From: Malacoraja senta
Lineage: Eukaryota
Length of the DNA: 64,000 nucleotides
Direction of reading: 5' to 3'
Assembly: GCA_038087875.1 (NCBI GenBank)
Contig: CM075990.1
Coordinates: 16,122,001 to 16,186,000, forward strand
Below, in pieces: positions 3,001 to 63,136 of this stretch. Each line of letters opens with the position of its first letter. Position 1 is the stretch's first letter. The notes under the pieces were generated by a model. That model was not told the DNA's origin, made no database searches, and worked only from the letters and a program-made list of their open reading frames with translations. A program made the position numbers and the translations under genes.

Positions 3001-3587
3001 ATCTCCACATGCAGAGCTCATTGTTGCTGAGATACCCCAGCTTCATCTCAGTCCGACCTGGCGCAGGGATCGGAAACCCCATTGATTTTTTTTATTTCAG
3101 GATTCTTTGGCTGCTGATGGGAAGGAAGATGGGAAATTAATTTCTTTAAAAAAAAATCATTTTGTTCTGCTTTAATATTTTAATTGATTCCAGTATCTTT
3201 GATATGTTTCAATTCAATTATTAAAATGTTATGTTTTAAACTTTATTTCACATTTAATAGTTTTTGAATGTCCCTTATTCTACCATGGCACACTGTGTGA
3301 TTTAATTTGCTGCTGTTTTTCATAAATATAAAACAAGCACAATCTCTGATATTCAACCTGAGCGCTTGTACTCAGTTTCAGATTTATTTTTCTTTTGACA
3401 ATTTTCCGAAGGTCTAAGTCAATCTGTCGGGTCAAGACTGCATCAGACCGCAGAATATCATGTCAATGTTCTGAGTCGAGACCCTGCATCAGGCCTCAGA
3501 AGATCTGAAGAAGGGTCTCAACCCGAAACATCACCCATTCCTTCTCTCCAGACATGCTGCCTGTCCCGTTGAGTTACTCCAGCATAT

Positions 3588-3690
3588 CTTGTGAGTAGGA
3601 AGGAACTGCAGATGCTGGTTAAAATCGACGATAGACAACAAGTCTATCGTCGATTTTAACCAGCATCTGCAGTTCCTTCCTACTCACAAG
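3588..3690. repeat. Perfect inverted repeat, 49-bp arms with 5-nt loop, made of Penelope-derived repeat tail
   Basis: 3588-3636 is the exact reverse complement of 3642-3690; loop aacaa. Confidence 0.95.
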
Positions 3691-4323
3691 TTATCCGGCA
3701 GCTCAAAGCTAAGCATCTATTATGCACTGTGGACCATTAGCAGCAGCAGAGACTGCAGCAAGTAAGAATTTCGTTGTTCTATCTGGGACTTGAGATGAAT
3801 GTCACCACAATCTGTAATCTGTGAGCATATGTCTCAATCTCCCATTACTACTACACCAGTGCAGAATGGCATGCTGAAAGCAGCAACAGGCAATGATGTG
3901 TCAATCTAGAGAAGCTAGGCTTTCACAACTTGGGAGAGAGATATTCTTCTTGCTCCTTCGAGCACCAACTGTGAACATCAGTGATGTTCAGGCCTTCAGC
4001 TTTGCCATCTGTCAGAGTCTGAGGAGCTGAAGCTGCAGACATGTAGAGGACCTGGGCACTAGGTGACTGCTTTACTACTCCATCTTATTAGAATCACCTG
4101 GTAGAAGTACAAAGTCCCTTTGCAAGTGGATCTTCCATTTCTGCAGGTGTATGGTCGAGAGCATATTGACTTTGTGAACAATGCTCTGTCCATCACGGGC
4201 ACTGACATGGGGTCTGTAGGAGGCACTGTCTCAAAGAGGCTGCCAACATAATGAAGGACCCACTCCACCCTGGCCACGCTCTCATTGCACTCTTGCCAGC
4301 GGGAAGAAACAGGGATGTAATGC

Positions 4324-4772
4324 TGGGGCCACATTTGGAATATTGTGGGCACCATATCTGAGGAAGGATGTGCTGGCTCTGGAGAGGGTTCTGAGGAGGT
4401 TTACATGAATGATCCCTGGAATGTGTAGATTAGCATATGATGAGCGTTTGATGGCACTGGGCCTGTACTCGCTGGAGTTTAGAAGAATGAAGGGAGATCT
4501 CATTGTAACATACAGAATATAGACAGTCTTGGATAGAGTAGATGTGGAGAGGATGTTTCCACTAGTGGGAGAGGCTAGTACTAGAGGCCATACCCTCAGA
4601 ATTAAAGGACGTTCTTTTATGAAGGATTCTTGATTAATAAGGGTGTCACAGGTTATGAGGAGAAGGCAGGAGAATGGGGTTAGGATGGAGAGATAAATCA
4701 GCCATGATTGAATGATGGAATAGACTTGATGGACTGAATGGCCTAATTCTGCTCTCATCACTTATGATCTTA
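4324..4772 (+). mobile_element. CR1-type LINE 3' fragment
   Basis: ccacatttggaatattgtg...aggaaggatgtgctggctctggagagg...ctggagtttagaagaatga; CR1 ORF2 C-terminus and 3' tail gcctaattctgctc. Confidence 0.85.
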
Positions 4773-6337
4773 TGAAGAAGATACAGGAGCCTGAAAACTG
4801 CGACCTCCAGGTTCAGGATCAGTTTCTTCCCAACAACCATCAGGCTATTAAACACTATGCACTCCAACTAAACTATGAACTGCCTTGGTTGCATTAGGAA
4901 CATCGGGCTATATTTTCTTTTGCCCAATACAGGCACCTTGCATTATAAGCATGTTTGATTTATGCACTTTTGAAATAACGCGCTTTCTCCTTTACTACCA
5001 ACGCTTGATTTACACACTTGGAATTTTTAAATAACGCACGCAAATTTACTGCTGTGGTCATAGTTGTGTGTATGGTTAGGATTTGTGTTGAGTTTAGTTT
5101 AGGCATAACTGAATTACCCGCAGCTTTGCAAGCATGTAAAACACAAGGTGATTTTTTTTAATTTATTGAACTATTTTAAAATGTATTTATTATCTTTTCT
5201 ATTGAGTGCTGTGTTTACCAACCTGTTGTGCTACTTTCAAATCAAGACAATAAAACACTCTTGACTATTGTCCACCCCCGATTATTCATTTATTTATTTA
5301 TTTAATGGCAGATTTATTTAACGACACTAATTTTAATTTTCCAGTTGCCATGCAGGATTCGAACTTGTGTTTCTAGATCAATATTGGGGAATTCTGTCCG
5401 ACTGTTCAGTAGCAACCACCGTGGAACAGTACCTGCCTTGCTTGAAGATTTAACTAATATAGTTTTGTGCTTTGAAATCTATTCTGGAAGCAATTGGTTT
5501 AATGTGCATTCTGCTTTACTTTCTTAATCTGCCAGGGCTCCTAATCATAGAGTAAAAGATATCAAGTTCACTTAATTCACTTGCAGTGTTGGCAGGTCAC
5601 TGAGTGGGCCGTCGAAGGGCAGGGACTGAAGAAGGGTCTCCACCTGAAACGTCACCCATTCCTTCTCTCCAGAGATGCCGCCTGTCCTGCTGAGTTACTC
5701 CAACATTTTGTGTCTATGTTTGCTGATCTAAACTGACAGGTGAATCCACAGTCTTTCACCCCACATTGGGGAATCAAGAACCACCAGACATAGGTTTAAG
5801 TTGAGAAGGGAGAGATTTAATTGGTACCTGAGGTATGTCAAAAGAGAAAGAACGCAGTTTCTACAACGACTCCATTTCTTAAATTCACATGAAGTGTTTC
5901 TCCCGACTGGCTTTTGACACATTTCAGAACTGCTTACTGGGCTTATGCAGGGAAAGGACAGTAAAGGAATGGAATGTACAAGAATACTTAGGAATTTTGA
6001 CCGGCTTCAAAGAAAACACACACATTGGAAATATGCTTAAATATACACACAAAAAAGAGATGGAGATCAAGAAACTGGGTGTAGGGAAAATAGTATGAAA
6101 AGGTAAGGGTTGGAAAAGATTGTTTAAAAAAAAAAGAGATTTGGCATTTTATGTATAACAACAGTGAACATAAAAATGTGATGTCAGTCACAGCTGGAAC
6201 ATTCTGTGCTGTACTAGCCAGTGATGACTCGTCTTGTAAAACACTAGAGACCGTAGATGCTGGAATCTTGAACTAAAAGCAAAACTTCTGGAGGAACTTG
6301 GCGGAACAAGCAGCATCTATGGGCTCAGTCTGAAGAA

Positions 6338-6636
6338 GGGTGGCACGGTGGCGTAGCAGTAGAACTGCTGCCTTACAATGCCAGAAACCCGGGTTCAATC
6401 CTGCTGTCTTACGGAGTTTGTACGTTCTCCCCGTGACCTGCATGGGTTTTCTCTGGGATCTCAGGTTTACTCCCACACTACAAAGATGTACAGGTTTGTA
6501 GGTTACTTAGCTTTGGTACAAATTTAAATTGTCCCTAGTGTTTGTAGGATAGTGTTAGTGCGCGGGGATCGCTAGTCACCACGGACTCGGTGAGCCAAAG
6601 AGCCTATTTCCGCGCTGTATCTCTAAACTAAACTAA
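6338..6636 (+). mobile_element. tRNA-derived V-SINE (HE1-like)
   Basis: Head ggcacggtggcgtagcagtaga (A box) and gggttcaatcc (B box), V-domain ggagtttgtacgttctccccgtg, tail ctctaaactaaactaaa. Confidence 0.85.
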
Positions 6637-7091
6637 AAAGAGGGTCCTGACCCAAAATGTTGTCTATCTATTTCCCCCCACAGATGCTGGTTCCGCTGAT
6701 TTCCTCCAGCATTGTGTTTTTTACTGGTCATCTAAATCCTGCTCCATCGCATTGTGCTATCACTGTGCTTCTTGCTGGGTGCCTTCTTTTCACTCCATCT
6801 CTCAGATTGGGTTCCCAACATCCCTTATTTAACAAAAAAAAAATTATGAAGACTGTATGGGAACAATGTGGGCACTCTTTTTCCCATTAAAATTTTCCCG
6901 ATTTATGCACCAGACCCACAAAGAGTCCTGCTCTGGGAATGCAATAGTAGCTTGGATTGTCCATACGAAGGAATCCTGAGGGTTTTTTACTGTATCACGC
7001 TGCTATTATTTACCATATTCCCTCCAGTTCCAACAAGTATACTTCTCCCTCCTCGTTCTTAGTTTAAACGCACACTATTCTACCCCATCAC

Positions 7092-10544: not shown

Positions 10545-10597
10545 TATGTGTGTGTGTGTTTATATATATATATATACACACACCACACACACACACA

Positions 10598-10669
<72 letters not shown>

Positions 10670-11358: not shown

Positions 11359-11860
11359 AACGTGACGACGAGGTCGCGTAATTTGCGTACCAAGGACACG
11401 TAAGTGGGACAGGGCCATAACTTCTCCAAGCTTCTTCTACACTGCATCTGAATATCTCACAGCTTGGACATTCTGATGTGTTTCTGTGATGAATCGGGCC
11501 AAGGAGCTGTCTTTTTCAAACTTGCAGTTCCACACAATTCAAAGCATAAACTAATGAACAAGTCACGGTGTCAGAAATAAAAGCGCAAGGAATGGCAGAT
11601 GCTGGAATCTTGAGCAAAACACAAAGTGCTGGAGGAACTCAGTGAGTCAGGCAGAAGGAATGGACAGACAATGTTTTGGGCCAGGATCCTTCTTCAGACT
11701 GAGTAAATTACCTATGCTTTGATGGGCTAGATCACTCAGGTTTATGGTTCATATATCAATGTAGGACACCATGTTGGACACCCTGAACACTTTTGGCTAA
11801 TGTATGACTTTGTCCTGCTGTTGGACACGAGATTCACAAGTGGAGGCTAATGGACAAGTC

Positions 11861-12294
11861 ACTTGGGCAGCTTACAACCCAGCGGTATGTGTTTTGATTT
11901 CTCTCACTTCAAGTTATCCTGACATCCCCACTCTCTCCATCCCTCCCCCACCCTAGTCTCCCTACTAATTTCACTGTCGTCCTGCTGAGTTTCACTGTTT
12001 ACATCACTCGTTCTCACCTTCCCCACTGCCAACAAGGGACTATTGTGGGCCCCACCTTTCCTTGATCATCATTGCTGGCTTTGATTTATATCTTTTGCGT
12101 ATCTTTCATTCATTTGTTCTATGTACCTTTTCATCTCTCATGTTTCCCTCTACCCTGACTCAGTCTGTAGAAGGGTCTCGACCCGAAACGTCACCTATTC
12201 CTTTTCTCCAGAGATGCTGCCTGTCCCGCTGAGTTACTCCAGACCTATGTGTCTATCATCGGTGTAAACCAGCATCTGCAGTTCCTTCCTACAC
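11861..12294 (+). mobile_element. Penelope-like element 3' fragment (endonuclease C-terminus plus pseudo-LTR with hammerhead motif)
   Basis: Starts with LGSLQPSGMCFDFSHFK (PLE GIY-YIG C-terminal L.T..P.G.N-type motif), then a pyrimidine-rich 3' region and ctgtagaagggtctcgacccgaaacgtc. Confidence 0.75.
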
Positions 12295-12679
12295 AAGGCA
12301 TATAGTTTTGTTCTGCAGCATGTTTGTGAGAATGTTCAACCTGTATCCTGTAGTTAATTCCACACATCTGAGAATTAACGTAAAAACATTCATCAACACC
12401 TTTACATCAACTTGCACACGAGAATCCTGACTAATGCCTGAACCAGCTGTTAATGAATTAGATGGTGTGATGTAATGCCACGGCTGCACAATGCGAGGTA
12501 TAACAACTGTGGAGCAAAACATTTAAAACCCACATTATATGTGCAATAAGTGCAGGATATTGATGTAACAGCAGTAAGGGTGGTCACGGTGGAGCAGCGG
12601 TAGAGTTGCTGCCTTACAGCGAATGCAGCGACGGAGACCCAGGTTCGATCCCGACTACCGGTGCTGTCTGTACAGAGTT

Positions 12680-14402: not shown

Positions 14403-15553
14403 AGTTTGTACGTTCTCCCCGTGACCTGCGTGGGTTTTCTCCGAGACCTTGGGTTTCCTCCCACACTCCAAAGACGTACAGGTTTGTTGGTTAATTGGCT
14501 TGGTAAATGTAAAAATTGTCTCTAGTGTGTGTAGGATAGTGTTAATGTGTGGGGATCGCTGGTCGGCGTGGACCCAGTGGGCCGAAGGGCCTTTTCCCAC
14601 GCTGAATCTCTAAACTATATATTTTTTAAAGACATGGGTGACTAAGCGCTGGATTTACAGCACAACTAATTCAAGGGCCATATGGGATTATCACGTTGGG
14701 TCATCCAGCCTCGTGGTTAAACAGCATATCTAACGTTATCTAATATTTATGTATAGGAAGGAACGGCAGATGCTGGTTTAAATCGAAGATAGACACAAAT
14801 AGACACTTCTATAGAAGATAGACACATCTCTGGAGAGAAGGATTGGGTGACGTTTCGGGTCGAGACATCTGAAGAAGGGTCTTGACCCTAAACGTCACCC
14901 ATTCCTTCTCTCCAGAGATGCTGCCTGTCCTGCTGAGTGAGTCCAGCATTTTGTGTCTACCTTTATCAAATATATAGTTCCAGTTAAATATTTTGGTATT
15001 GTCAGCAAAACATTTCAAGCATCACATGATGGTGAGCTTTAACATCATCTGTTTCTCGCTGACGTTGCAAATATTTCCATCTGTTACAAGATTCAGTTCC
15101 CGAACACAGTCTGTGGCCTGCTGGAGTGTAGACAGTGGCAGATTAGGCTGGTGCTTTTACCCTTCTTACATTATAGGCCCACAAAGTTATACAGCGTAGG
15201 AACCGGGCCTTCAGCCCAACCTTTCCATGCCGATCTACGCTCATTGCACCTGCTTGTGTATGACCTGTCCAAACCTTTCCTATCCTTGTACCTGTCCAAA
15301 TGGTTTATAGATGTTGTAGTTCTACCTGCTTCTATCACCTCCCCAGGCAAGGCTTTCCTTCAGATCCTCTTCACTTGTCTACATGTTACCAAAGGGCTAT
15401 CATTCACTGTTGTTGAGAAGCAGTACAGGCTGGATTGTTTTCTTTGCAGTAATGGTGGCTGGGGGTGGGGGGGGGACGACACAATTATGAGAGGCATAGA
15501 GAGGGTAAAAAGTAAGAAACACTTCACCATGGCAAAGATGTTAAGTCCATAGG

Positions 15554-15820: not shown

Positions 15821-18800
15821 CCACAGGCCGTGGACATGAAGTGAGGAGTTAGAGATTTAGTAATGGGAAGATAGATGAGTGGGGGGGGGGGGGTGGATTG
15901 AAGCAAGGTGGATTGTTCTGGTATTGATTTAGTATAGACTTGACAGGCCAAATGTCAACGGCCAATGGTGTTTTATGTCACGCGCAAACGCACAGTGAAA
16001 TACTTTTCTTTTGCATACAGTCCTGTAAAGTATTGCCATATCTGATCACAGTCTCTGATTCTCTTTGTTTAAGGGAGAACTGCAGACGCTGGTTAAATTG
16101 AAGATAGACACAAAATGCTGGAGTAACTCAGCGAGTGAGGCAGCATCTATGGAGAGAAAGAATTGGCGTCATTTTGGGTCTCAACCAATTCCTTCTCTCC
16201 AAAGATGCTGCCTCACCCACTGAGTTGCTCCAGCATTTTGTGTCTACCTCTGATTCGCTTTCCCTGCTGATATAATTATTTGATTCTATAAATGTGATCA
16301 TTGCAGGCGTTTGATTTGAGGTACTGTATCTCAGGAAATGAAGTGCTACTGCCTCTCTTGCTAATTCTGCTAAAGGAACATCAATCACTCTCTTGAACCC
16401 ACCACTGTATTCACGTTCTGTTGTCATGTGCTCAGCTGGGAAGGAATACCAAGCTGGGTAGATGGAAGGCTTGCATTTAACAGAGGGGAACGTGATTTCC
16501 AGTAAAACGTTGCTTTAATAATGACCTGCCCCACTTGTACATTTATGTACATCATCAGTAATAGCGTTCGCTGACCAGGAGATTTATTTTCTTCGATCGA
16601 TCTGCAAAGCACAGTAGGGCAGTCTAGTGTGTATGAAGGAACTGCAGATGCTGGTTTAACCCAAAGGTAAACACAAAATGCTAGAGTAACTCAGCAGGAC
16701 AGGCAGCAGCTCTGGAGAGAATGAATGGGTGGCATTTTGGGTCGAGTCCCTTCTTCAGACAGTAGTAGTCTATAGGGCAGCTGGTGTCACATCAGACAAT
16801 AAGATTCAGAGACAAATCTGAATAGTACATTTTTCTGGAGATTATATTTTTGCATTTTTAATATTGCAATAACACTTTAATAACCTGTGGTCCAACTATT
16901 GGGAAATCTTGATAACTCGGTATCTGGCTCCCAGGGTAATGTTTGCCCCAGTCCCTTCTGGCTTACTAGAGCTCCAACTCCTGCACTCCCATTCAACTCA
17001 CCAGGGCCCTTTCTCATGCCACCTTTCAATTCGCTGTGGCCCTGGTTCTTCCACTCTCTCCAGATTTACCAGGTTCACCAGATACCCTGTAATATGTAAA
17101 AGTGTTGCTATCCAAGAGTCCAGCAATGTCCCAAATGTGTTGGATTATGGAACTTTTACTGTAATGTCTAACCGTGAGGGTACCAGCGGATTATTCCCAA
17201 GGTATTAGTTAGAGCTCAGTGGTTGCATGAACATCTTTGAACGAGAAAGATGCATAATCAGTTGAAGCAAGGAACTCCAGATGCGAGTTTACCAAGGAAT
17301 GTTGGAGTAACTAACATTTGGTCAGGCAGCATTGCTGGTGAACACATATAGGTGATGTTTCGGGTTGCGTTCCTTATTCAGCCAGATTGTGGGGGGAAAA
17401 ATAAATCTAGAAGAGAGGAGCGGCAGGGCAAAGCATGGCAGGTCATTGGCAAGGGGAGTTTTTGATTGCAGATGGTTGGACAATGGCCAGAGATGAACAC
17501 ACACAAGGTGCAAGTTGCATAATCATCTTTGAACCACTCCAGACATTTAGGTTAGCACTAGTTGTGGTACTGAGGGAGTGCATACTGTCTTTGAGATACA
17601 ATGGTAAAGTAGACAATCTCTCAGATAGATGTAAAGGTTGGTGTGTTATTTTGAAATGCCATGGCCGGTTATCCTCCAATCAATATCTCTGAAACATTTT
17701 ATCTGCTCGCTCTTGTTTGTGGAAACTTGCTAAGTGTTAATTGTCTGCTGGCAATTCTAGCGAACATAAAGGCACCACGGTCCTAGATGTTTCACAAAAT
17801 TGACACATTCCTGCAAAATGTTTGTTGAGCAAAATTTCATAAATCGAAAAGGCTGGGTGAAATGCATAATGGACAATTTGGTACCATGGATCACAGCGAC
17901 CGATGTACCTTTATTAAGATACAAAAACAGCTTGGTAAATCAAAGATGGGAATCCCAAAGGGCCAATATGTCACGGTGACATTTTATATATCGAGGAATA
18001 ACTGTATGTAGAGTACAAATCATCCTTTACAAAGTAGGAGTGGGTAATAGTATAAATTAATTGAAGTCTTTTAGAAGAATCTGTCCATGCAAGATTTAGG
18101 TTCAAGATTTGAATTGTGAATGTGTTAACTCCCGTCCAAGGTTAGGTTTAACTTGAATGCAGAGCATGTCAATGAACATACATGTTTGGAACAGGAGTGG
18201 ACCATTCGGACCCTCAAGTCTGCTTCACCATTTAATATCATGGCAGACTTGCTTGTAACCTCACCTCTGTGCTTTTGTCCCCTCGTGGTAACCGTTCACT
18301 CATTTGTTTAGGAAGAATCTACCCTCCCCTTCAAAATATTCAAGGAGCCCCTCCTGCCCTTTGAGAAAGGCAATTGCAAAAAATCTCAGAAAACAAATCA
18401 CCTTATCTCCCACTTAAATGGGTGGCCGCTTATTTTTAAATAGTAACTCCTGATTACGCATGTTCCCAAAGGAGGAAACATCCTCTCCATATCCCCCAGC
18501 GAAAGACATAAAATGCTGGAGTAATGCAGGGGTTCAGGCAGCATCTCTTGGAGAACATGTATAGGTGACGTTTTGGGTCAGGACCCTTCAGACTAATTAC
18601 AGGGGGGGGGGGGGGAAGAATCCTGGAAAAGAGGGTAGGACAGAGCATGGCTGGTAATAGGTGAAATCTCCATGCCCCCCCCCCCCCTCCTGCCACCCTC
18701 CAACCTCAAGAGAGTTTGGAGAATTATATGGTTATATTTGATCGTCAAAGGTTCTTACTTACCTGCACTCCAGTGGATACAAACCTATTTTTACTTCCAT

Positions 18801-45988: not shown

Positions 45989-48900
45989 ATCTGTCCATAT
46001 CCCTCACCGATGATTCCTGACCCGTTGAGTTCCTCCAGCACTTTGTTTTTGGCTCAAGATTCCAGCTTCTGCGGTCTCTCGTGTCTCGATTGCCACAGAT
46101 GGCTGTGTTGGCCAGGTCAGTGGATACTTTTAAGGCAGAGATTGATAGATTCTTGGTTAGTACGGGACTCGGGGGTCACGGGGAGAAGGCAGGAGAATGG
46201 GGTTTGGAGGGAGAGATATATCAGCCATGATTGAATGGCTGAGTAGATTTGATGGGCCGAATGGCCTAATTCTGCTCCTATCACTGATGAACTTATGATT
46301 GCCGCTCTCAACTGAGACTGGGAGATGATAGTACGTCTCCCAACTCAGGCATTGTTGTCCATTGCACAAAATGCAGTTTGAATTCAGCTTCACACTCTCA
46401 AGATTTCCACCAGACCAGGTTCAAGCAGAGATGTAACTACAGCACTTTAACAAAAGAGCTTTTATTAAAAACCAACAAGAGTGGGGGGGGGGGGGGGGGG
46501 GGGGGGGAAGCACACACAATCCTACTGGAATTTACTGCAAACCTGTCCTTTGTACTCTATAAGCCTGAAACAGTTGCAGACTTTACAGGTTATTAATAGG
46601 AATGCTAATAGTTGGATAGTGTTGGGCCCTTTCCCCAACTCCCTACCCCCTTCAACACAAGCACTAACTCTCTGGGCCTTTTAGTAATCCTGCTGTTACT
46701 TCAGTTGTGCCACTATGAGTTCAGAAAAGACCTCTTGTCTAACTTTGTGAGTAGTTAGTTAGTTAGTTTGAATAGCTTTCCATCACCTTTTGAGTCTACG
46801 AATAGTGAAATGTGGGAGTTTTAATTGCTATGAATTACTTTCATTGAGAAAGGATTGATTAGTTGTTTGAAGTAATGAGCAAGGGAACAATGACTGGATG
46901 TAGTTAAAATTGTGTAACTGTTTGTGTGTCTGGGACTGTGTGAATAAAGGAATTTACATTCTCAGACAACAGTGAGGGAATGAAGAATATAAAAAAATAG
47001 AATGTGCGTAGAATAATTTTTCAATGTAAATAAAGGCGATAAATATTTGCACCTGGAATCCTAAAAATTGTCTATGGTTCACTGTAATCACCTGAGCTTT
47101 AGATCATTTTTAGTAGCTGCTGATGCACTGAATAATTACAGGAAGGTTGAAGAGATTCAATTAAACCCAAGAATAAAAACATGAAATGTCAGAAATGTTC
47201 AGTAAAACAGGCAACATCTGTTGAGCAAGCATAATTCAATGCTCTGGTTCAGTGATGCTTAGAAAACAGTTCTGGTGCAAGACAGAATCATTTACCTTGT
47301 TTCTCTTTCCACAGATACCGCCTGATCTGATGAGTGTTTCTGTCATTTTCTGTTCCTGTTTTAAATTCCCAGCAAGTACAGTTTTTTGCTCTGACGCATA
47401 CATATGTGCATTTAATATTTGACGGTATTTTAGGTTCCTTCCTGGGGTAGTATTTCTTTATGTTCAAGTGGAAAAAAAGCTTTAAAAACGTGTTTATTTT
47501 TACATTAAAAAAAAAAAGAAAACTGAAAAAAAAGCTTTGATACTGAGCTGCCAGATTTTATTTTGTTTTTAGCAGGGCAGTTGGAGCGTTTAACCTGAAC
47601 GGTTTTAATGTTCTCCCATCTCATTATGTCCTATCATGTGTCCATTGCTAAGCCCTTTTGTTTTAAGAAGAAAGGCATTAGTTTCATTATTCTTTCTGCT
47701 CTGAAGATGTGGATTTCTGTTTCCTCAGCTCCAATTATTGTCTTGGGACCTGAGCAGTAACAGGAAGATGGGAAAGCAGAACTTGTCGTCTAATTCCACC
47801 GAGACTACAGGTGTACTTTGTCCAAGGCAGGTGGTTTGCAGTGCAGTTAATTTGTTCCTTCATGGGATGTTGTCGGGATGTGGTAAGGTCAGCATTTTTA
47901 TTATCCACTGAAGATAGACACAAGAAGCTGGAGTAACTCAGTGGGTTAGGCAGCGCATATTATCCACCTGCTCGATCACTCATCTGACTGCTTCTTTCGG
48001 CCCCTCACATTGAGTCTACCACATTGATGGGTTGATTGGGTCAGTATCGTTTGTGCTAAAGTGACTGAGTAAGTAGGCACATTCTCTTAAATAATTGTAC
48101 AGTAACAACATAGCATATCAGGTCATATGTACAGGTAGAGAGGGGGTGGAAAGAAAGTTCTCTAGAGTATTTGAATGGAAACATGGCGATCCATGTATAA
48201 GCCAACCTGGACAAGGACAACAGTTTTTCCTCACTTAAGTAGATTAATGAACCAGATGAGGTTTTTATGGTAATATGGGAGATTCAATATCACTGTTACT
48301 GCCACCAACTTCATCTTTAATAAGGTATTTTAATTATCCTTATTCCATGGCTGATGTTGTAGGATTTGAACGTGTGTCTACAAGCCAGTTGTCCAATCCT
48401 CCCCAGTAACTTTTGTGTCACCATAAGCAGGAGGTGTATGTAGATACTGCTAAAGGGAGGAGGATATTTTAATCCAACACATTGTTTCAAGTTAAATCCC
48501 CAAGACGTTAAACCAGTGAAGAAGGCACGTTCAGACAAAGCACATTCAAAATGGTTCACATCAAGAATAACTTGTCTGTCAGGTAGTGGAGACTGAAAGT
48601 CTTTCAGGATATCATGAGCAAAAGAATTTAGTGTCATTTTAGTTTAAAATCTTTTTAATGCAAGGATAGAGTGGATAAATATAATAATTTCGACAGGCAG
48701 TATATATTGAAGTGTTTGATTCAATGTGTTTTATAAACTGCACAGACTTGGAAATTAATTCACTTACTGGATTCAGAAGTTGAATAGTAATGCAACCAGA
48801 AAGCAGGTTTACAATTATATTTTTTCTGTAGCCTCATTAGGAGCCGTCACAATAACAATTAAAAGTTAAAACATCAGGTATTTTAATTGTATCGTTGTAT

Positions 48901-49994
48901 AAGATCAACTTAATTTTATATATCTTTATCATTTTAAGGGAGGATTATTATTTGAAATGCTTTCTGGAAATTCAGTAACTATTGGATATGAATGCATTAA
49001 ATACCAATTTACTAATATTTGCACATGACAGTTTTGAGGTCAGTAATCTGAGATTACATTTAATGGCAGCAAAGATTAATGTTACAATAGGTTTAGAAGA
49101 TAGCGAGTTAGATAAAATGTACATGGAGATAGCAGTTGTTTCAGTCAGTAGAGTTAGTGCTAAAGTGACGACATAAATAGGTACAATCTAGTAAATAATT
49201 GTACAGTAACAACACAGCATATCAGCTCATATGTACAGGTGGAGAGAAGGACAGAAAGGATGCTCTCGTGTGTATTTGAATGGAGACACGAGGGTGCTGG
49301 GTTCTGACTCCAGTGAAGAGTGTCCTGGATCTTGCTTGGGCCTGTTGACTCCACTGCTGAGACTATTAGTCATCATGTCATACAGCATGGAAACAGACCC
49401 TTCGGCCTAACTGTGTAGGAAAGAACTGCAGATGCTGGTTGAAGAAGGGACTCGACCCGAAACGTCACCCATTCCTTCTCCCCAGAGATGCTGCCTGTCC
49501 CGCTGAGTTACTCCAGCATTTTGTGTCTATCTTCAGCCCAATTCACCCATGCCGACCAAGATGTCTCACCTGAGCTAGTTCCATTTGGCCCAGATCCATC
49601 TAAACCTTTCCTATCCATGCACCTGCCCAGGCGTCTATCATAGTACCTGCGTCAAAAACCTCCTCTGAGTGAGGCTGTGTAGTTAGTTATACCTACTTTA
49701 TTTCCAGCAGTCACGTTTAGACAGCATGGACTGGATGAGAGGTGTTGCTTAGATGTGGAACTTCTATGAAACTACAAAGCCAGGTCAGGGATAAATGCTC
49801 CTGATGGAACAGTTAATAAAGCCAGTTAAACACCAAACTGACATTGTGCAAAATCTAGTGTCCTCATTCTCCCCCCCAGATTCAGTGAGATGTGACCTAG
49901 TTTGTCATGGTGATTGTGTTGTGTGTGTGATCTCCTGGTCCCTGCTCCCCCAGAGTGCATGCTGATCTACAAAAGCTTGAACATATGACATTAC

Positions 49995-52507: not shown

Positions 52508-55433
52508 TTAAGCTGTAGATACTATTGAATTGGATACTTTATTGTCACATGTGACAAGTCAGTGATTCTTTGCTTGCACACCCAAGGTATGCCAATAGCT
52601 GCCACATAAGGGCGCTGAGAAAGTTACAAAGTATCTCAGGCCGTGTCCTCCTTTGTTCTTTCTCCCCTTCTTGCGCTGGAATACCATATAGTGCATTGTT
52701 ATCGCATGTGAACAAACGAAGGGAGAGGAAATGGCAGCTTAACGTCTGGACAAAATATTGATCCAGCATAACACTTTAAGAAGCAGTGAAAAAGCCAAAC
52801 CCAGAGCTAACCCTTGTATAAATGCACAGATCTAAATGTATTTCCCTCACATGTAATGTTTGCAGTGGGTGCATATATCTCACATGACCAGGGAGAGGAT
52901 GAGAATTTTATACAAACAGATTATTGTGGAATGGAAAGGAGATTTTAAAACTTATGCAGGAGAGAAATAAAGGCATCTTTCCCCAAATCACCTACAACGT
53001 ATTTGGTTGTTTATTTTCCAAATTTGCAAAGGGAAAAAACAGCACAATTTTTCACAGTAGAAATTGGTGACAATTCAAATCGATAGTAGCAGTTCATAAA
53101 GTGAGGGGTTTTCTCAATTAAAGTATCGTTGGTGCTTTCTTCCTCCTGATTTACTAACCCCCAGCGATGTTGAAGCATCACAGCACTATCTTGGCCAACA
53201 ACTAAATGAAAAATGATGGGTTTGTGATTCCTGAGCTCTGTTTGCTTTCAATAAGCTTTCAGGGTCACTTTGAACAGGGATCTGTCTGGTCGTAAAACAG
53301 TTAGGATTAGAAAACGCCAAACCCAGAGCTAACCCTTGTATAAATGCACAGTTAGGATTAGAGCAAAATGAACGAATACATTGAAATAGGAACGCGCTCA
53401 AGTTAAAACATGACCCGACCACAAGCAGACCAGCCCAAACCTGCGAGCTGGACGTTCTTCCCTAGCGAACCAATTTGACCAGTGTTGTAAATATAACAAT
53501 GTCAGACATGCTATAGATCTGTTTGTGGAGTAACGCCGAATGTTAATCAAGAACAGGGACAGTAATGCAGAGGAGATTGCCCAGACCTGGATGAAGTAGT
53601 GAGCAAGCAGGTCCATCACAGTCAGAGCAAAGCGTTTCATTAGAACATTCACCCAACCAGGATACAATAGAGTCGGGTCCCGACTGGCTTGGGCTGGGTG
53701 ACTAGCTCCTGATCGAGGAAGACTTGGTTTCCCATGTTGTTATGAACCGGTTTATGTCTCCCCTTGTCTTGCTCCATGCTTCACCTTACGTGGGTGCAGT
53801 GGTAGAACAGTCCTACTGGCTTTCTTTCTGCATCAGTTTCAATGTCTCGTCGCTCTTAAACGTGGATTTAATTGTTGAGTAAGGTTGTTTTCATCTTTAG
53901 CCTAAATGTCGGTCTATTCCAAATGTGACCCAAGTTTACAGTGAATCAATAGAAATTCTTAGTCGTCATGCACAACGTTCGCCAAAATGGGGAAGAAATT
54001 TGTCATTGGTTGTAAATTTGTGTCTGTGAGGGTGTCAGCTACCAGTTGCACTCACTTCTAGCTCATTCTGCTCCATGCATTTTGTATCCATTGCACAGTA
54101 TTCCAAAGAAGGATTTCTCCTCTCTACACAAGAGCCAAATGGTTACAAATACTCTGGCAAACAGCAATGAATTCTGTTAATGCTCCTTGTCACTTGATGA
54201 GATGTTTCTAAACGTGTTTATTCTGTTTCATCTGTATCTTGCTCACCTGTCTCACTTGGACATGGTTAGCCCACACAAGGGAATAAAGAACCTCAAAAGA
54301 AAGAGCCAGTGTGGACAAAGGTATCTGGACATTCACGACAAAATGTACGTCTAGACTTAAATCCCAACCCAATCCAACCAGGGATTTACACTCTACCACT
54401 TTATTTCTTACACTATCCAAGAGTTTTAAATGTATACCAAAGTCACTCCTGAAAGAAGGCTCCACATCCGTCAGTGTTTTGTTCAAACATTCGCTGTGAC
54501 TGTAATTCCATTCCATCCTTGCATCACTCACTGCACTAAGGCTCCAGTATTAGCCACCCGAGTAGCAGGAGTTGAGGGGAAAAAAATCACAGCATTGCCC
54601 ACCAGTGGTCACTTGCCACTACCTTGTATGTGCCAAAATATGATGGAAATGTAGCATCAACCCGCTCTTATCTAATCCACAGCTACCATCCTTCCTCGGC
54701 TAACCTCTTTCAGACATTGCTGAAATTCAAGAGTTTAGATCTGACCTTCAAGTATTCAATGGGTCCATCTTCCAATGCAGCTGTTCCTCGTGACATCACG
54801 ACTCTCTTCATAAGCAGCTGTCCACCATAAGGAAATCCTGACGTCCGTCAGAGTTTCTTAAAGTGCCCACACCACAAACTACAAGGCCGCTGAGCTTGGG
54901 GCCCTTGCTTGCTTATTGAAACCATTTCCACCCCACGTCCAGTGCAGTGCCTTAATAACTGGGGAGTAGAAACTGACACCAATAGATGGGAACTGTTCAG
55001 ACATAAAACATGCCTCACCCTTCCCCACTTGGCAGTCCATGGAGCCATACGAAGTGATTGTCTACACAATCGTTTCTTTGAGAACTGCCTTTCCTAGTGT
55101 CAGAAACCGTCTGGAAACAAGCTGATCCAACAGGTATTGTTTCATGGTGCCATCTCATTCCAAAAAGACAGTGTCGTTTTTATTTTCCTTAAGTCTGCTT
55201 TTCAACGCAGTGTTCAAATGTATTATAAATGTACCAATCTTCTGTACATACACATTCTCTATGCATTTGTGTTTAAAAAATGCCTAATTCATTGTCAATG
55301 TAATCATTAAAAATTTAAACAATTTCTTGAGTGTGCTTTATTTCAGAAAAGAAAATGCTCCAGATATTCTTGTTTTCCTCATGTGTCGTAAATGTTAACA
55401 AATACTTAGCAGCGGAATCAAAAAATTACAGCA

Positions 55434-55657
55434 AGCTTACACCCCAGCGGTATGAACATTGACTTCACCAATTCCTTGCTTTCTCCGTCTTTCCCCTCCC
55501 CTTCCCAGCTCTCCCACAGCCCACTGTCTCCGCCTCTTCCTTTCTTCTTCCCACCCCCACAACAGTCTGAAGAAGGGTCTCGACCCGAAACATCATCTAT
55601 TCCTTTGCTCCATAGATGCTGCCTCACCCGCTGAGTTTCTCCAGCATTTTTATCTAC
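55434..55657 (+). mobile_element. Penelope-like element 3' fragment with hammerhead motif
   Basis: SLHPSGMNIDFTN, then a pyrimidine tract and ctgaagaagggtctcgacccgaaacatc at 55567. Confidence 0.75.
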
Positions 55658-57100
55658 AGCAAGCTGATAGTTCAGCCCACTCCGTCCATGCTGGTCAACA
55701 TTACATATTGGGTTAATGTTAGTTCCCAGTATTACGTTCAAGAGCCAAGAATGTTAGGGAGGAACTACAGATGCTGGTTGAAACCGAAGAAACACACAAC
55801 ATACTGGAGTATCTCAGCGGGACAGGCAGCATCTCTGGAGGGAAGGAATGGGTGACATTTCACGTTGAGACCCTCTTCAGACAGCTCATGCAGTCTTACT
55901 CCAGCATTTTGTGTCTATCTTTGCCAAGAATGTTTAGTTGCCCGACAACGGAACAATTGAATTCTTACCTGCAGCAGCATAAAAGGCCTGTAAATACAAT
56001 ACCCATAGTAATATATAACAAGCAGAAATACAATCAATTAATAGATTCAGCCTTAAGTTCTAAGTATTAGGTTCAGCATGGTAACTCAGTGTTTGAGTTG
56101 TACAGCAAGGAAACAGGCCCTTCAGCCCACCTTGCACTTGCTGACCAACAACACGATTCCAACCTGCTGTGTTAGGCCCATATCCCTCTAAACCTTTCCT
56201 ATCCATGTATCTGTCCAAATGTCTTTTAAATGCTGTTATTGTCCCTCCTCAACAACCTCCTCCTCTGACTGATTGTTCCATATATCCCCTTCCGTCTGTG
56301 AAAAAGTGGTCCCTCAAGTTCCTATTAAATCTTTCCCTTCTCATCTTGAACCTATGTCCTCTGATTATTGATTCCCCTGCTCTGGTTAAAACTCTGTGCA
56401 TTTACCATATCTATCTCCCCTCACGATTTTCTACACCTCTGTTAGATCGCCCCTCATCCTCCTGCGCTCTAAGGAATAAAGTCCTAAATGCCCCCAACCT
56501 CTCCCTGTAGCTCAGGCCCTCAAGTCCTGGCAACAGGATTATGTTCTCAGCATAGCACCTGCAGCTTATGATTCTACAGCAGCTCATGTAGCTAGTTTTG
56601 AAATGCCTGTCTTGTGCCCTGCTTTTTCACACTTTTACTGACAGCAGCAAACATTTTAAAAATGTGCTGCTTGCAAGAACAACAACAGCAAAGTCAGCAT
56701 TCATGGTGTTATATAATTCAAAACATGATGTAAAGTGTCCGATCAAGGACATTTGATCAGAATCAGATGCACGTTCGTACACACCTTCTATCATCAGTGA
56801 TGCTTACCATCAAGGACTTCTCAGGCCACTCCAAGTACATTCACTAGAGTGGTTTGCCCCTGGTCAAGCACATACACAGCTGCCAGATCAGACCTAAACT
56901 CGGGACCTCAGAATTATGAGGCAATCTCTTTGAAACACATGATTCCAGGAGGATGTGCACCCTCACAGGCTGCTTGGTGTGTAGGAAGTAAATGCAGATG
57001 CTGGTTTATACCGGGAAATGGACACAAAATGCTGGAGTAACTCAGCGGGTCAGGCAGCATCTGTGGAGAAAAGGAATAGGTGGCTTTGTGGGTCAGTCTG

Positions 57101-57654
57101 AAACATAGAAACATAGAAAATAGGTGCAGGAGTAGGCCATTCGGCCCTTCGAGCCTGCACCGCCATTCGATATGATCATGGCTGATCATCCAACTCCGTA
57201 TCCTGTACCTGCCTTCTCTCCATACCCCCTGATCCCTTTAGCCACAAGGGCCACATCTAACTCCCTCTTAAATATAGCCAATGAACTGGCCTCAACTACC
57301 TTCTGTGGCAGAGAATTCCAGAGGTTCACCACTCTCTGTGTGAAAAATATTTTCCTCATCTCGGTCCTAAAAGATTTCCCCCTTATCCTTAAACTGTGAC
57401 CCCTTGTTCTGGACTTCCCCAACATCGGGAACAATCTTCCTGCATCTAGCCTGTCCACCCCCTTAAGAATTTTGTACGTTTCTATAAGATCCCCCCTCAA
57501 TCTTCTAAATTCTAGCGAGTACAAACCGAGTCTATCCAGTCTTTCTTCATATGAAAGTCCTGACATCCCAAGAATCAGTCTGGTGAACCTTCTTTGTACT
57601 CACTCTATGGCAAGAATTTCTTTCCTCAGATTAGGAGACCAAAACTGTACGCAA
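57101..57654 (-). mobile_element. CR1-type LINE 3' fragment inserted into a Penelope-derived repeat
   Basis: MSGLSYEERLDRLGLYSLEFRRLRGDLIETYKI...; flanks rejoin as cagtctg|aagggttccaacccgaaacatc. Confidence 0.9.
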
Positions 57655-58336
57655 GGGTTCCAACCCGAAACATCACCCATTCCTTCTCTCCAGAGATGCT
57701 GCCTGTCCTGCTGAGTTACTCCAGCATTTTGTGTCTATCTTCAGTGTACACCAGCATCTGCAGTTCCTTCCTACATTGTAATTGCATTTAAATTATGATC
57801 ACTGTGGCCCTCTACTGGTAAATCTGAAAATGACCCTGATTGAGATGGGCTTTAAGGCTTTGAAATGTCCTTGCAGTTTTTTTTATATACATGCTAACTT
57901 TAGGCATTTTCTATTAGAAGCTGGAATTTGTAGATAACTTTGTAGTTTCTGCTGGTCTAAAGGAATACCGTCTTAAAATAGTCTCCCTTTGGCACCAGTA
58001 CAATGAAAGGTTGATGCCCCTATTTGCAAGGCAGCCCTGTACAATACATCCATTTAACAATAGGATCCACTCATATATGTCTGACATTTCTGACCTATAA
58101 TGCAATAAATAATTTACAGAATGGGATAAGAGCAGGAGAATGGACCCAAAGAGACTGCTCCACAAGGAGCCAACACAGACTCAATGGGCTGAATGGCCTG
58201 TGCTCTGCTGAAGCAACATTATGACATAAAGTAACCCACTCACATCCCACATCATATTTTAAATGGAATATTTTTTTTTTAATTCAGTAAACATCTTGCT
58301 GAATAACTAAATGGCATAGAGTCCTTCAAAGATTCA

Positions 58337-61289: not shown

Positions 61290-61310
61290 GAAGGAGAGAA
61301 TTAAACTTAC

Positions 61311-61463
61311 GGAACGCCCTGGAGTAGGCGGAAGAGTTGACCTTTATCCCAGTACAACAGATGACCAAGTCTGCAGTGATTTCCAGACCTTTGTCCGTCA
61401 GTATCCTCATGTCAGGCTGCGTTTCATTCAGGATGAGGTCGCGCAGATTAGTGACTTTCTGCC
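61311..61463 (-). CDS. AIFM2: AIFM2/FSP1 internal exon
   Basis: AG/GT flanked, 153 nt; QKVTNLRDLILNETQPDMRILTDKGLEITADLVICCTGIKVNSSAYSRAF. Confidence 0.95.
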
Positions 61464-62197
61464 CTATTGGGAAAAAAACACAAAGGATTCACTTGTTTCT
61501 CGATGCAAAGATGCAGTCAAATACACACTATGGGGATAAGTCCTGCTGCCTGTGTGGAGTTTGCACGTACTCCCCATGCTCCAGTTTACTACCACATCCC
61601 AAGGACATGCTGGTGGGTAGTTTAGTGTTGGTCACTGTATAATGCCCCTTGTACAAGGGTGAATGCTACAATCGGGGGGGGGGGGGGGAGAATAAAACGT
61701 GGGTTTAATGCAGGATTAGTGTAAATGGGTGGTCTATGGTTGGTACCGACTCAATGGATGAAGGGCCTGTTTCAGTGCTGTATTACTATGACTATAACTC
61801 AATCACAAGGATGTTGCCAGAATTTTATACACTTACACGAGGGAACATGTCAGGGGGCGGTGTCGGGGGGAGGGTGGGGGGCAGATTGTGCCCCTCCCAC
61901 CGCCAAGTATAAGTGGTAACTAATAACATTAAAAATAGGCACTACTGGAATCTGGACTGACTCCACGATGGTGGAGCTGCTGCCTCGCGGCACCCGAGAT
62001 GCAGGTTCAATCCCGACCCTAGGTGCTACCGGTGTGGAGTTTTCACGTTCACATGAGGTCCAACCCCCCCCGTCCCGTGCCGTGCCGGCCGCTCCCCCGC
62101 CAAGTAAATTCAATCGCTATTTTCAAATAAGCTGAGATAATAAGGGTTTGCCATCCCCCACCCCCGCATAATCTGGCCAAGTCGTTAGCCAATGTAC

Positions 62198-62306
62198 CTA
62201 ACTGAAGCTGAACTCCTTTCCCCAGTAGGATCTCTTTCAACCCTTGCCTTACACTCGGCAAGAGCTGGTCATCAGCCAGAGGAATCTTGGAATGAACCAA
62301 GGTCAC
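62198..62306 (-). CDS. AIFM2: AIFM2/FSP1 internal exon
   Basis: AG/GT flanked, 109 nt; VTLVHSKIPLADDQLLPSVRQGLKEILLGKGVQLQL(G). Confidence 0.95.
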
Positions 62307-63136
62307 CTGGAAATAAATTAAGAAGAAAAAAAAAAAGTTCTGGTTGTGAAAGAACAGAAAACACGAGAAGAATAGGAGCAGGAGCATGGTCTCACATGCC
62401 TGTCCCACCTTTCAATATGATCATGGCTGGTCAAAGCTGGCCCCAACTCATCTTCTCCACCCGTTCCCCACAATTCCTCAATCCTTCAAAGATTGTATTT
62501 GAACCTCTGACGTTGTGAGGCAGCTGCATTACCAGATGTGCCACTGCGTTGCCCATCTGTGCCACTGCGCTGCCCATCTGTGCCACTGTGCTGCCCATCT
62601 GTGCCACTGCGCCCCTCCAGTCTTATGTTAACATTGACCACCATCTACTCTGAAGAAGGCTGCCAACCCAAAACTTCACCTATCCATGTTCTCCAGAGAT
62701 GCTGCCTGACCCACTGAGTCACTCCAGCACTCTGTGTCCTTTTGGGTAAACAAGCATCTGCCGTTCCTCGTTTCTACATCTAAACCGTCGCCCACATCTC
62801 TATTCCAGATTTCTCCCCCATAATACAATCTGTCTGAAGAGGAGTCCCAACAATGGGGACTGGACTTTGTGCCTTCCCTCACAGTGGGGACCATTGTGGG
62901 GGGATGTTTTTATGTTAAATTCCTTTATAATGTTATGTTGTATTCTTATTAATGTGCTGCAATGGCAACTCGAATTTCACTACAACAATTGGTGTATGTG
63001 ACAATATATGAACCTTTGAACTGAAATATCACCCCATCTATGTTCTCCAGAGATGCTGCCAAACCCGCTGAGTTACTCCAGCACTATGTGTTTGTCCATT
63101 GTAAACACATATCTGCAGTTCCATGTGTCTACTCAC

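What the first reader, a model, noticed from the sequence alone, without database searches (positions are those of the whole stretch)
3505..62680. Window is peppered with minimal hammerhead-ribozyme cores carried by Penelope-like repeats
Seen: the motif CTGAAGA-A-GGGTC-TC-GACCC-GAAAC-GTC or variants at about 3505, 5626, 12165, 14869, 26634, 28474, 38347, 45961, 49440, 55567 and 62650 (+), with antisense copies near 11670, 16731, 27479 and 35258. It has both hammerhead boxes (CUGANGA, GAAA), a stem II, an extra A after A9, a palindromic ACGU in place of stem III and an NUH triplet. At 11861 and 55434 it lies downstream of a Penelope endonuclease C-terminal remnant. Established: Penelope-like elements carry minimal hammerheads in their pseudo-LTRs that can cleave as dimers. 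Inference: a high-copy non-autonomous, retrozyme-like family; several + copies are sense to the elongase pre-mRNA. Caveat: many copies have core mutations and stem I is poorly supported.
Basis: partly seen in the sequence, partly recalled or inferred. Interest (0 to 1): 0.7.

Follow-up and report, generated by a model that had tools for sequence, protein, structure and literature searches.

The report
Skate Penelope repeats with hammerhead motifs
The scattered motifs are real minimal hammerhead-ribozyme sequences at the head of a very common short leftover of a Penelope-like jumping gene in a skate genome, a known kind of element that is mostly decayed and probably inert here.

Summary
Confirmed. 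All 15 listed sites belong to one ~135-nt repeat: 53 fragments at 41 sites, 7.5% of this skate window, none in shuffles. It starts with a minimal type-I hammerhead. It is the pseudo-LTR end of a Neptune-type Penelope-like element (PLE): two copies follow a GIY-YIG endonuclease C-terminus; 3' ends fall in two clusters about 35 nt apart; 10 of 10 head-to-head pairs carry the tail on one arm only; target duplications are enriched. It is not a tandem retrozyme. Only 3 of 27 hammerheads are intact, core CpGs decay like non-core ones, stem I is 2 bp (0 hits with the published descriptor), there is no strand bias in the elongase gene, and one RNA-seq run shows no pile-up of ends. Best mechanism (inferred): the element's RT starts internally at one of two sites and copies uncleaved RNA back to a fixed 5' end at an initiator-like TCAGT, so short units outnumber longer ones 50-100-fold. 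The kind is published (2014); this scan noted it in three shark windows. Less familiar: the 2-bp stem I, the fixed 5' end and the two-site priming pattern.

The parts
1..74 (+). unit fragment, columns 23-93, cut by the window edge
269..332 (-). old diverged fragment, motif destroyed
1015..1110 (-). old diverged fragment lacking the 5' box
2006..2136 (+). old full-length unit of the variant with C in place of A9
3417..3494 (-). two short remnants of the C9 variant hammerhead (C3 at 3492 and 3446)
3504..3684 (.). unit (columns 2-83, C3 at 3505; ACGU palindrome broken by CpG decay) followed by an inverted and a direct copy of the tail
5625..5725 (+). short-form unit, core intact (C3 at 5626), first stem I pair missing
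6244..6726 (.). head-to-head pair: minus arm 6244-6322 with tail; plus arm (C3 at 6330, resuming at 6637) split by a ~300-bp insertion of another repeat
11585..11702 (-). full-length unit of a second subfamily, G12 mutated (C3 at 11697)
11860..11916 (+). C-terminal remnant of a GIY-YIG endonuclease of a Neptune-type PLE
11917..12161 (+). pyrimidine-rich 3' UTR / upstream part of the pseudo-LTR
   Evidence: (family coverage from about 11858)
12162..12295 (+). full-length unit with tail; private A6>U change in the core (4,739 of 5,087 reads carry A)
14751..14965 (.). head-to-head pair, tail on the minus arm; plus arm has G12>U
16067..16255 (.). head-to-head pair, tail on the minus arm; plus arm starts at column 31 at a 4-nt microhomology
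16629..16760 (-). full-length unit, core mutated, 8-nt flanking repeat
17263..17445 (-). unit of a third subfamily with upstream pyrimidine tract, G8 mutated
18494..18655 (-). short-form unit with upstream pyrimidine tract, 2-nt deletion in the 5' box
19537..19750 (.). head-to-head pair, tail on the plus arm
20753..20875 (+). full-length unit of the second subfamily, core mutated
22236..22294 (+). old internal fragment
22699..22748 (+). 5' fragment with damaged hammerhead
23000..23071 (+). old 3' fragment with tail
26633..26760 (+). full-length unit, boxes intact, palindrome broken
26881..26930 (-). rearranged 5' fragment
27377..27570 (-). full-length unit with about 60 nt of the same UTR as the 12165 copy; U16.1 mutated
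28160..28233 (-). old fragment, 9-nt flanking repeat
28376..28602 (.). head-to-head pair, tail on the plus arm (C3 at 28474, one stem II mismatch); predicted long hairpin
29064..29117 (-). 5'-truncated short-form fragment
35191..35401 (.). head-to-head pair, tail on the plus arm
38344..38475 (+). full-length unit, core intact (C3 at 38347, GUU triplet), 2-bp stem I, 11-nt target duplication; sense in elongase intron
42471..42639 (.). head-to-head pair, both arms 5'-truncated, tail on the plus arm
43328..43367 (+). internal fragment, 13-nt flanking repeat
45887..46081 (.). head-to-head pair; plus arm has an intact core (C3 at 45961) and the tail; predicted to be paired with the inverted arm
47173..47226 (-). 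old fragment
47305..47389 (+). old fragment with tail
47904..47954 (-). 5'-truncated short-form fragment, 10-nt target duplication
49412..49536 (.). non-overlapping inverted pair: tail only (columns 102-133) on the minus arm, columns 4-98 on the plus arm; twin-priming geometry
55431..55655 (+). one insertion: endonuclease remnant (55431-55472), UTR and short-form unit (C3 at 55567), bracketed by a target duplication
55754..55939 (.). head-to-head pair, tail on the minus arm (C3 at 55880, extra A missing)
56979..57095 (-). 5'-truncated unit with tail
57653..57775 (+). unit lacking the first 8 columns, with tail
62649..62774 (+). full-length unit of the third subfamily, G12 mutated; antisense in an intron of the minus-strand gene
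63017..63126 (+). 5'-truncated unit of the third subfamily

Best explanation
The repeats are short insertions made by a Neptune-type Penelope-like retrotransposon (PLE), each a copy of the end of its pseudo-LTR: minimal hammerhead, about 65 nt of body and an optional ~35-nt tail. Shown: link to a GIY-YIG C-terminus, two 3' ends, tail on one arm of inverted pairs, target duplications, neutral decay of the core. Inferred mechanism: the RT-endonuclease nicks DNA and primes reverse transcription inside its RNA at one of two sites (about column 97 or column 133). It copies uncleaved RNA towards the 5' end. On the upstream pseudo-LTR this run ends after 100-135 nt at the RNA's start, an initiator-like TCAGT 3 nt before C3, which gives the abundant short unit. 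On the downstream pseudo-LTR it runs into UTR and ORF and is truncated, which gives the rare endonuclease-remnant copies. Priming of both DNA strands, one at each site, gives head-to-head pairs with one tail. The hammerhead is kept by selection on master elements, where it would cleave weakly as a dimer and with protein help. Dispersed copies are passengers and are probably inert.
For: Endonuclease link; related ray proteins carry RYIDD, a CX4CxxC linker finger and two cysteines between GIY and YIG, which is Neptune/Nematis architecture (passages); one remnant sits inside a target duplication with its hammerhead. 3' ends: 14 of 34 at columns 91-103 and 16 of 34 at 129-133; 5' ends: 13 of 34 at columns -1 to 5, 1 of 34 at the cleavage site. 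10 of 10 two-armed inverted sites have the tail on one arm, p = 0.002 against 50:50; this structure is described for PLEs. Flanking repeats of 7 nt or more at 10 of 40 sites against 4.8% of 1,560 mismatched pairs. In public runs the unit is covered 24-176 times deeper than the upstream part, ends sharply at 12295, and has random letters before 12162-12163. Core CpG decay 41 of 135 against 37 of 149 outside, p = 0.35; non-CpG core 93% against 78% in the adjacent spacer across subfamilies. Internal RT starts at two sites bounding the tail, extension of both strands, protein-assisted cleavage and no need for cleavage were shown for the anole element PAc (PMC11167929).
Against: No autonomous element could be read (no genome held), so the position of the unit relative to the transcription start and ORF start is not shown. 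PAc is of the Poseidon clade, not Neptune. The initiator reading rests on a 7-nt match, and the RNA run shows no pile-up of starts there. Most inverted arms overlap in sequence, which needs two RNA templates or template re-use; self-priming on an antisense template is a published alternative (passages). Stem II has no compensatory change in 23 copies, stem I is 2 bp, and folding predicts the core sequestered, with stem II under 1%. The Pfam GIY-YIG scores of the related proteins (18.7-21.3 bits) are below the cut-off of 22.6.
Confidence: 0.68

Rival explanations
1. The ~135-nt unit is a true SINE-like non-autonomous family: short copies are themselves transcribed from an internal promoter starting at the TCAGT and are mobilised in trans by the PLE protein.
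For: Fixed 5' and 3' ends and 24-176-fold excess over the upstream part; at least three subfamilies in the window; pseudo-LTR sequences suffice in cis for mobilisation in rotifer PLEs, whose pseudo-LTR has an initiator-like motif (passages); D. virilis Penelope has an internal promoter (passages).
Against: Subfamilies A and D each also occur with upstream UTR, and two copies with the endonuclease end, as expected if all derive from autonomous RNA; RNA reads lie equally on both strands with no start pile-up (a poly(A) library would miss a short non-adenylated RNA).
Confidence: 0.17
2. The motif is a hammerhead by descent but no longer works as one in this lineage; it is conserved for another job, such as promoter or RT binding.
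For: Stem I of 2 bp (U-A or U-G plus G-C or G-U) fails the published 3-bp minimum; no compensatory change in stem II; an older variant with C at the invariant A9 spread to at least two independent sites; hammerhead mutants of PAc insert normally in vitro.
Against: All other features of the published consensus are kept in the majority sequence of the subfamilies; 2-bp helix I occurs in published PLE hammerheads of Culex, Drosophila and Oikopleura; subfamily B can extend stem I to 4 bp over a 1-nt bulge (read).
Confidence: 0.09
3. A non-LTR retrozyme: tandem units that self-cleave, circularise and re-insert.
For: Contigs of related skates show joints from the unit's 3' end back to its 5' end (up to 46 contigs per joint, spacing not known); one chondrichthyan genome was reported to hold retrozymes, and these derive from pseudo-LTRs.
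Against: No tandem array of the unit among 15 rows of Tandem Repeats Finder; copies are not permuted at the cleavage site; retrozymes are described with canonical type-I hammerheads in tandem repeats (passages); no RNA ends at the GUC.
Confidence: 0.04
4. Some copies were co-opted to cut or regulate the elongase pre-mRNA.
For: Two intact cores (5626, 38347) lie sense in its introns.
Against: No strand bias (12 to 11), neutral core decay, 3 intact of 27 as expected from decay alone, 32.7 kb between the two, stem II predicted at 1% or less in context.
Confidence: 0.02

Closest known systems
Minimal hammerheads (min-HHR) in pseudo-LTRs of metazoan PLEs (Cervera and De la Pena 2014, PMC4209133)
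   Same: CUGANGA plus one extra base, G10.1-C11.1 stem II, GAAA, palindromic positions 15.2/16.2, NUH, no stem III; downstream of a PLE endonuclease; mostly dispersed single motifs from truncated elements; pairs on opposite strands.
   Different: Stem I of 2 bp with a U-A or wobble first pair, below the paper's descriptor; no cartilaginous fish among its 56 listed motifs; density of about one site per 1.6 kb in this window; motif sits at the very 5' edge of a sharply bounded unit.
Neptune/Nematis-type EN+ PLEs (architecture as summarised in Craig et al., bioRxiv 2021.04.23.441226)
   Same: C-terminal GIY-YIG with CCHH cysteines and linker zinc finger in the related ray proteins; 5' truncation, inverted pseudo-LTR, 30-40-nt tail on one end, target duplications.
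   Different: Only 14-18 codons of the ORF survive in the window; clade not tested by an RT tree.
PAc (Poseidon element of the green anole; Frangieh et al. 2024, PMC11167929)
   Same: Hammerhead about 100 nt upstream of two 3' ends that bound a tail; copies made from uncleaved RNA; no RNA-seq ends at the cleavage site.
   Different: Different clade; in PAc the ORF starts at stem II, here the ORF start is unknown and the main subfamily has a stop codon within the unit; no biochemistry here.
Non-LTR retrozymes of animals (PMC7229834; bioRxiv 10.64898/2026.07.22.740005)
   Same: Short, non-coding, hammerhead-bearing, PLE-related, high copy.
   Different: Those are tandem 150-450-nt repeats with mostly canonical type-I ribozymes that yield circular RNA; these are dispersed or inverted, minimal, and not permuted at the cleavage site.

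Membership tests
PLE min-HHR | CUGANGA box with one extra base before stem II | tested here: met
   majority sequence; consensus in the paper's supplement
PLE min-HHR | stem II of 3-7 bp opened by G10.1-C11.1 | tested here: met
   4 bp, 86% of cells paired in 23 copies, but no change on both sides
PLE min-HHR | GAAA, palindromic 15.2/16.2, NUH triplet, no stem III | tested here: met
PLE min-HHR | stem I of at least 3 bp (published descriptor) | tested here: not met
   0 hits at 3 bp, 3 hits at 2 bp; the same paper lists 2-bp helix I variants found by hand, so this places it among those variants, not in the descriptor class
PLE min-HHR | lies in a pseudo-LTR downstream of a PLE ORF | tested here: met
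   two copies follow a GIY-YIG C-terminus and UTR
PLE min-HHR | self-cleavage as a dimer | not testable with these tools
   needs an assay; one RNA-seq run shows no end pile-up
EN+ Penelope-like elements | RT plus C-terminal GIY-YIG endonuclease in the parent element | tested here: inconclusive
   only the last 14-18 codons are in the window; they match ray proteins with RYIDD and GIY-YIG features; Pfam GIY-YIG scores below cut-off
EN+ Penelope-like elements | inverted 5'-truncated pseudo-LTR with a 30-40-nt tail on one end | tested here: met
   10 of 10 two-armed sites
EN+ Penelope-like elements | variable target-site duplications | tested here: met
   10 of 40 sites with 7-13 nt repeats against 4.8% in the control; some are not adjacent to the ends
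EN+ Penelope-like elements | full-length ORF between two pseudo-LTRs | not testable with these tools
   no genome held; pattern scans of viral, metagenome and prokaryote collections empty
Neptune clade | CX2-5CxxC zinc finger between RT and endonuclease | tested here: met
   present in P0126, P0132, P0133, the proteins matched through the remnant; shared with Nematis; no RT tree was built
Non-LTR retrozymes | head-to-tail tandem units each with a hammerhead | tested here: not met
   none in the window; rare go-back joints in contigs of relatives, spacing unknown
Non-LTR retrozymes | canonical type-I ribozyme with 6-bp stem I and loop-loop contact | tested here: not met
   no Rfam hammerhead match
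Non-LTR retrozymes | circular monomer RNA | not testable with these tools
   only a poly(A) library was available

The most novel reading that the evidence does not exclude
Skates carry, in hundreds of thousands of copies, a sharply bounded ~135-nt PLE-mobilised short retroposon that runs from an initiator 3 nt before the hammerhead to the RT start site. Its hammerhead class (2-bp stem I) is missed by the published descriptor. Its inverted pairs are a genomic record of twin priming in which each DNA strand uses a different one of the two RT start sites. If the units are transcribed on their own, this is a SINE class driven by Penelope-like elements, with a minimal RNA template for a Neptune RT.
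Probability: 0.3. Interest if true: 0.58.

Novelty: new member of a known kind. Interest (0 to 1): 0.3.

Why it matters
As a class it is known, so it changes little. It adds cartilaginous fishes, and a descriptor-invisible 2-bp stem I form, to the list of PLE hammerheads. Extrapolating 3 intact cores in 64 kb gives about 47 per Mb (95% interval 10-137; one window only), well above the 4,000-9,000 per genome reported for coelacanth and Xenopus. The many simple insertions are a cheap test bed for the unsolved PLE integration mechanism: fixed 5' end, two 3' ends, one tail per inverted pair. They also argue that ribozyme cleavage does not make the RNA that gets inserted. A 135-nt RNA would be a minimal template for testing a Neptune RT. 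For skate genome annotation, the family covers several percent of DNA, and the parent ORF's end has been annotated into a host gene model.

Tried and rejected
No whole genome is held, so no genome-wide count. Exact-pattern scans found nothing in viral contigs, metagenomes or prokaryote genomes. Rfam: no hammerhead family at E up to 10. Pfam does not recognise the 23-aa and 29-aa remnants; the protein atlas gave only hits under 0.8; PDB gave nothing for P0126. Idea that the PLE ORF begins inside the unit: a 62-aa reading of the 45961 copy found no relative among 15 candidates, which is weak evidence. 3 of the 5 hits of the remnant profile (P0122-P0124) are repetitive proteins matched by summed short stretches and were dropped. 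Idea that the pyrimidine tract plus CAG before the motif is a splice acceptor that defines the 5' end, as the D. virilis intron does: disfavoured because many copies keep the A and G that splicing would remove and loose ends share no upstream exon (agreement 0.33-0.35), but not excluded for the autonomous RNA. Two alternative hairpins (GAUGCUG with either of two CAGCAU motifs, each about 20 nt before a 3' end): 89% paired, but no compensatory change and no better than shuffles; the third helix was set on the wrong columns and is void. Fold z-scores of the majority sequence are -0.45 and -0.07. One row (6331) of the letter counts was off by one, so those counts are not used. No RNA holder on record was listed for the elongase exon; the one raw RNA run is of another organism of the same study. 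Lunse et al. 2017 could not be read.

Full report
Context. The window is from a skate: its elongase exon is 96% identical to the Amblyraja radiata ELOVL6-like protein. Plus-strand exons lie at 30881-31015, 42189-42347 and 43795-44208. The first coding exon was not found in the window, so 1-30880 is probably intron (inference). A pyridine-nucleotide oxidoreductase gene runs on the minus strand from beyond 63200 to about 58560 (the name AIFM2 is recalled, not from a call). No whole genome is held.

Observation. All 15 listed sites are copies of one repeat. A profile from 8 copies found 51 fragments, and none in 5 reversed or shuffled windows. A refined profile found 53 fragments at 41 sites, covering 4,785 bp or 7.5% of the window. 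The unit has 133 columns, with C3 of the ribozyme at column 3. Its 5' end reads as a minimal type-I hammerhead: CUGAAGA, an extra A, a 4-bp stem II with a 4-nt loop, GAAA, palindromic ACGU and a GUC or GUU triplet. This fits the consensus in the supplement of Cervera and De la Pena 2014. I coded their descriptor: 6 hits with stem I free (0.03 per shuffle, 30 shuffles), 3 with 2 bp or more, and 0 with their minimum of 3 bp. Rfam has no hammerhead among its 35 matches.

State of the ribozymes. 27 of the 53 fragments reach the motif region. 3 of 27 keep both boxes, 4 of 4 stem II pairs, the palindrome and NUH: 5626, 38347 and 45961, all on the plus strand; 5626 lacks the first stem I pair. CpG transitions hit core positions (41 of 135) as often as loop II and downstream CpGs (37 of 149; p = 0.35), so the copies decay neutrally after insertion. 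Outside CpGs the invariant core is 93% conserved (236 of 253), against 78% for the adjacent spacer (p = 5e-9) and 87% for columns 50-86 (p = 0.004). Because at least three subfamilies are mixed, this points to selection on master elements; alignment-edge bias may add to it. Stem II shows no change on both sides in 23 copies. Stem I is 2 contiguous pairs in every copy examined that keeps its 5' end. Folding predicts the core paired elsewhere, with stem II at 1% or less, both in the majority sequence and in the intact copies in context. Nearest-neighbour models ignore the catalytic core's own contacts, so this is only suggestive.

Origin. A profile of the two peptide remnants, searched against 1.84 billion proteins, returned 5 hits. 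3 are repetitive chance matches; 2 end in the same motif. One is an unnamed 200-aa GIY-YIG-like fragment, the other a skate receptor model with an exonised endonuclease end. The 11860 remnant is 14 of 18 identical to the latter. The fragment led to 3 longer proteins among 89 candidates, from two rays and an unnamed source. They show RYIDD or RVT_1, a CX4CxxC linker finger, two cysteines between GIY and YIG, and weak Pfam GIY-YIG matches below cut-off. That is Neptune/Nematis architecture (passages of bioRxiv 2021.04.23.441226). tblastn with these 5 proteins finds only the two remnants in the window.

Anatomy. For 34 fragments of the main subfamily, 3' ends fall at columns 91-103 (14) or 129-133 (16), with 4 elsewhere. 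5' ends fall at columns -1 to 5 in 13 of 34 (11 of 29 after removing three UTR-bearing copies, one cut by the window edge and one rearranged). Only 1 begins at column 31, the first base after the cleavage site, and there a 4-nt microhomology explains the junction. 10 sites have both strands. One is a tail palindrome; the other 9 are head-to-head pairs, and a tenth pair is split by a later insertion. In 10 of 10 the tail is on exactly one arm (p = 0.002). Inverted pseudo-LTRs with a 30-40-nt tail on one end are the described PLE signature. Flanking repeats of 7-13 nt occur at 10 of 40 sites against 4.8% of 1,560 control pairings, though not all are adjacent to the ends. The 55431 insertion has remnant, UTR and unit inside one duplication. 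Tandem Repeats Finder reports no array of the unit among 15 rows.

Public reads. I laid 4 of the 19 listed runs on 11781-12380 at 82% likeness. In two contig sets from related genomes 265,511 and 230,635 records matched. In the one raw poly(A) RNA run (another organism of the same study; 6% read) 19,614 of 7,335,232 reads matched. The unit is covered 24 to 176 times deeper than the UTR or endonuclease part, depending on the bins compared. It ends sharply at 12295 before AT-rich letters. Loose ends before 12162 and 12163 have no common sequence (agreement 0.33-0.35), while those before 12160 are pyrimidine tracts of sister subfamilies. At 12168, 4,739 of 5,087 reads carry the A that this copy lost, so the family core is intact. 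RNA reads lie equally on both strands, and no place was found where many molecules begin or end. This fits read-through of embedded copies. It does not exclude a short, non-adenylated or tissue-specific RNA. Contigs show both inverted and go-back joints.

Mechanism. For the anole element PAc, RT starts inside the RNA at two sites that bound the tail, both DNA strands are cut and extended, the hammerhead needs the protein, cleavage is dispensable for insertion, and RNA-seq shows no ends at the cut site (PMC11167929). The geometry here matches: two 3' ends about 100 and 133 nt from the hammerhead. I infer that the short unit is the run-off cDNA from these sites to the RNA's 5' end. That end maps to the A of TCAGT, an initiator-like motif (consensus recalled; a similar motif was noted in a rotifer pseudo-LTR). 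Copies primed on the downstream pseudo-LTR extend into UTR and ORF. One strand primed at each site gives head-to-head pairs with one tail; 49412-49536 has the non-overlapping geometry of twin priming on one RNA, while overlapping arms need two RNAs. Self-priming on an antisense template is the published alternative. These steps are inference; the PLE origin and the decay are shown.

Host gene. Single-strand sites inside the elongase span are 12 sense and 11 antisense. Copies at 45961, 49440 and 55567 lie beyond the stop codon, and 62650 is antisense in the other gene. A regulatory role is unlikely.

Comparison and novelty. The 2014 paper already reports minimal hammerheads in PLE pseudo-LTRs, mostly as dispersed single motifs from truncated elements, with weak dimer-only cleavage and 2-bp helix I variants. 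No cartilaginous fish is in its supplement file 2; file 1 could not be searched. Literature searches found no description of this skate family. A 2026 preprint found retrozymes in one chondrichthyan genome, and its closed supplements may bear on this. Repbase and Dfam could not be searched. Three earlier notes of this scan report the same kind of motif in shark DNA. What I read: PMC4209133, parts 1-2 of 4 and all of supplement 2; PMC11167929, parts 1-2 of 4; bioRxiv 2026.07.22.740005, parts 1-3 of 5; passages only of bioRxiv 2021.04.23.441226, PMC3846280, PMC2377424, PMC7229834, PMC6765202 and PMC8969392; Lunse et al. 2017 only as cited in PMC6765202.

Verdict. A real, abundant, mostly dead hammerhead-bearing PLE remnant: a new member of a known kind, interest 0.30. 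The fixed 5' end, the one-tail rule and the descriptor-invisible stem I are the parts worth following up.

Noticed in passing
window 2006-2136 (+), 3417-3494 (-): An older variant has C at the invariant A9 position (box CUGAUGC followed by A) at two independent sites; either a dead ribozyme that still spread or an undescribed core variant.
   Followed up: partly
P0125 (XP_078266213.1), residues about 445-499: A skate neuromedin-U receptor 1 gene model ends in the C-terminal part of this PLE's endonuclease: exonisation or an annotation artefact.
   Followed up: no
window 6341-6636 and at least ten other places (14403, 21934, 24119, 29250, 31932, 34235, 36558, 38959, 60979): A second ~300-bp repeat family (looks like a tRNA-derived SINE; label recalled); one copy inserted into stem II of a hammerhead, so it postdates that insertion.
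   Followed up: partly
window 13384-14151 (-), 18639-19364 (+), 24876-25226 (+), 12892-13320, 32900-33525, 57100-57654: LINE reverse-transcriptase fragments (Pfam RVT_1 and ALKBH8_N) and young, 92-94% identical LINE 3' ends.
   Followed up: no
window about 44050 (+): The last elongase exon lacks three codons relative to the Amblyraja and Heterodontus proteins, in a transmembrane stretch; real or assembly error not checked.
   Followed up: no
columns 3-13 with 37-49 of the unit (for example 14869-14915): The spacer after the cleavage site is partly complementary to the 5' box in the main subfamily and is predicted to pair with it; a possible built-in off switch, without covariation support.
   Followed up: partly
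columns 51-57, 78-84 and 108-114 of the unit: One motif can pair with either of two repeats that each lie about 20 nt before one of the two 3' ends; possible RT-start hairpins, no compensatory changes.
   Followed up: yes
window 10539-10840 and 39776-40658: Long AC/AT microsatellite and 18-nt minisatellite tracts; they cause most of the Rfam microRNA matches.
   Followed up: no
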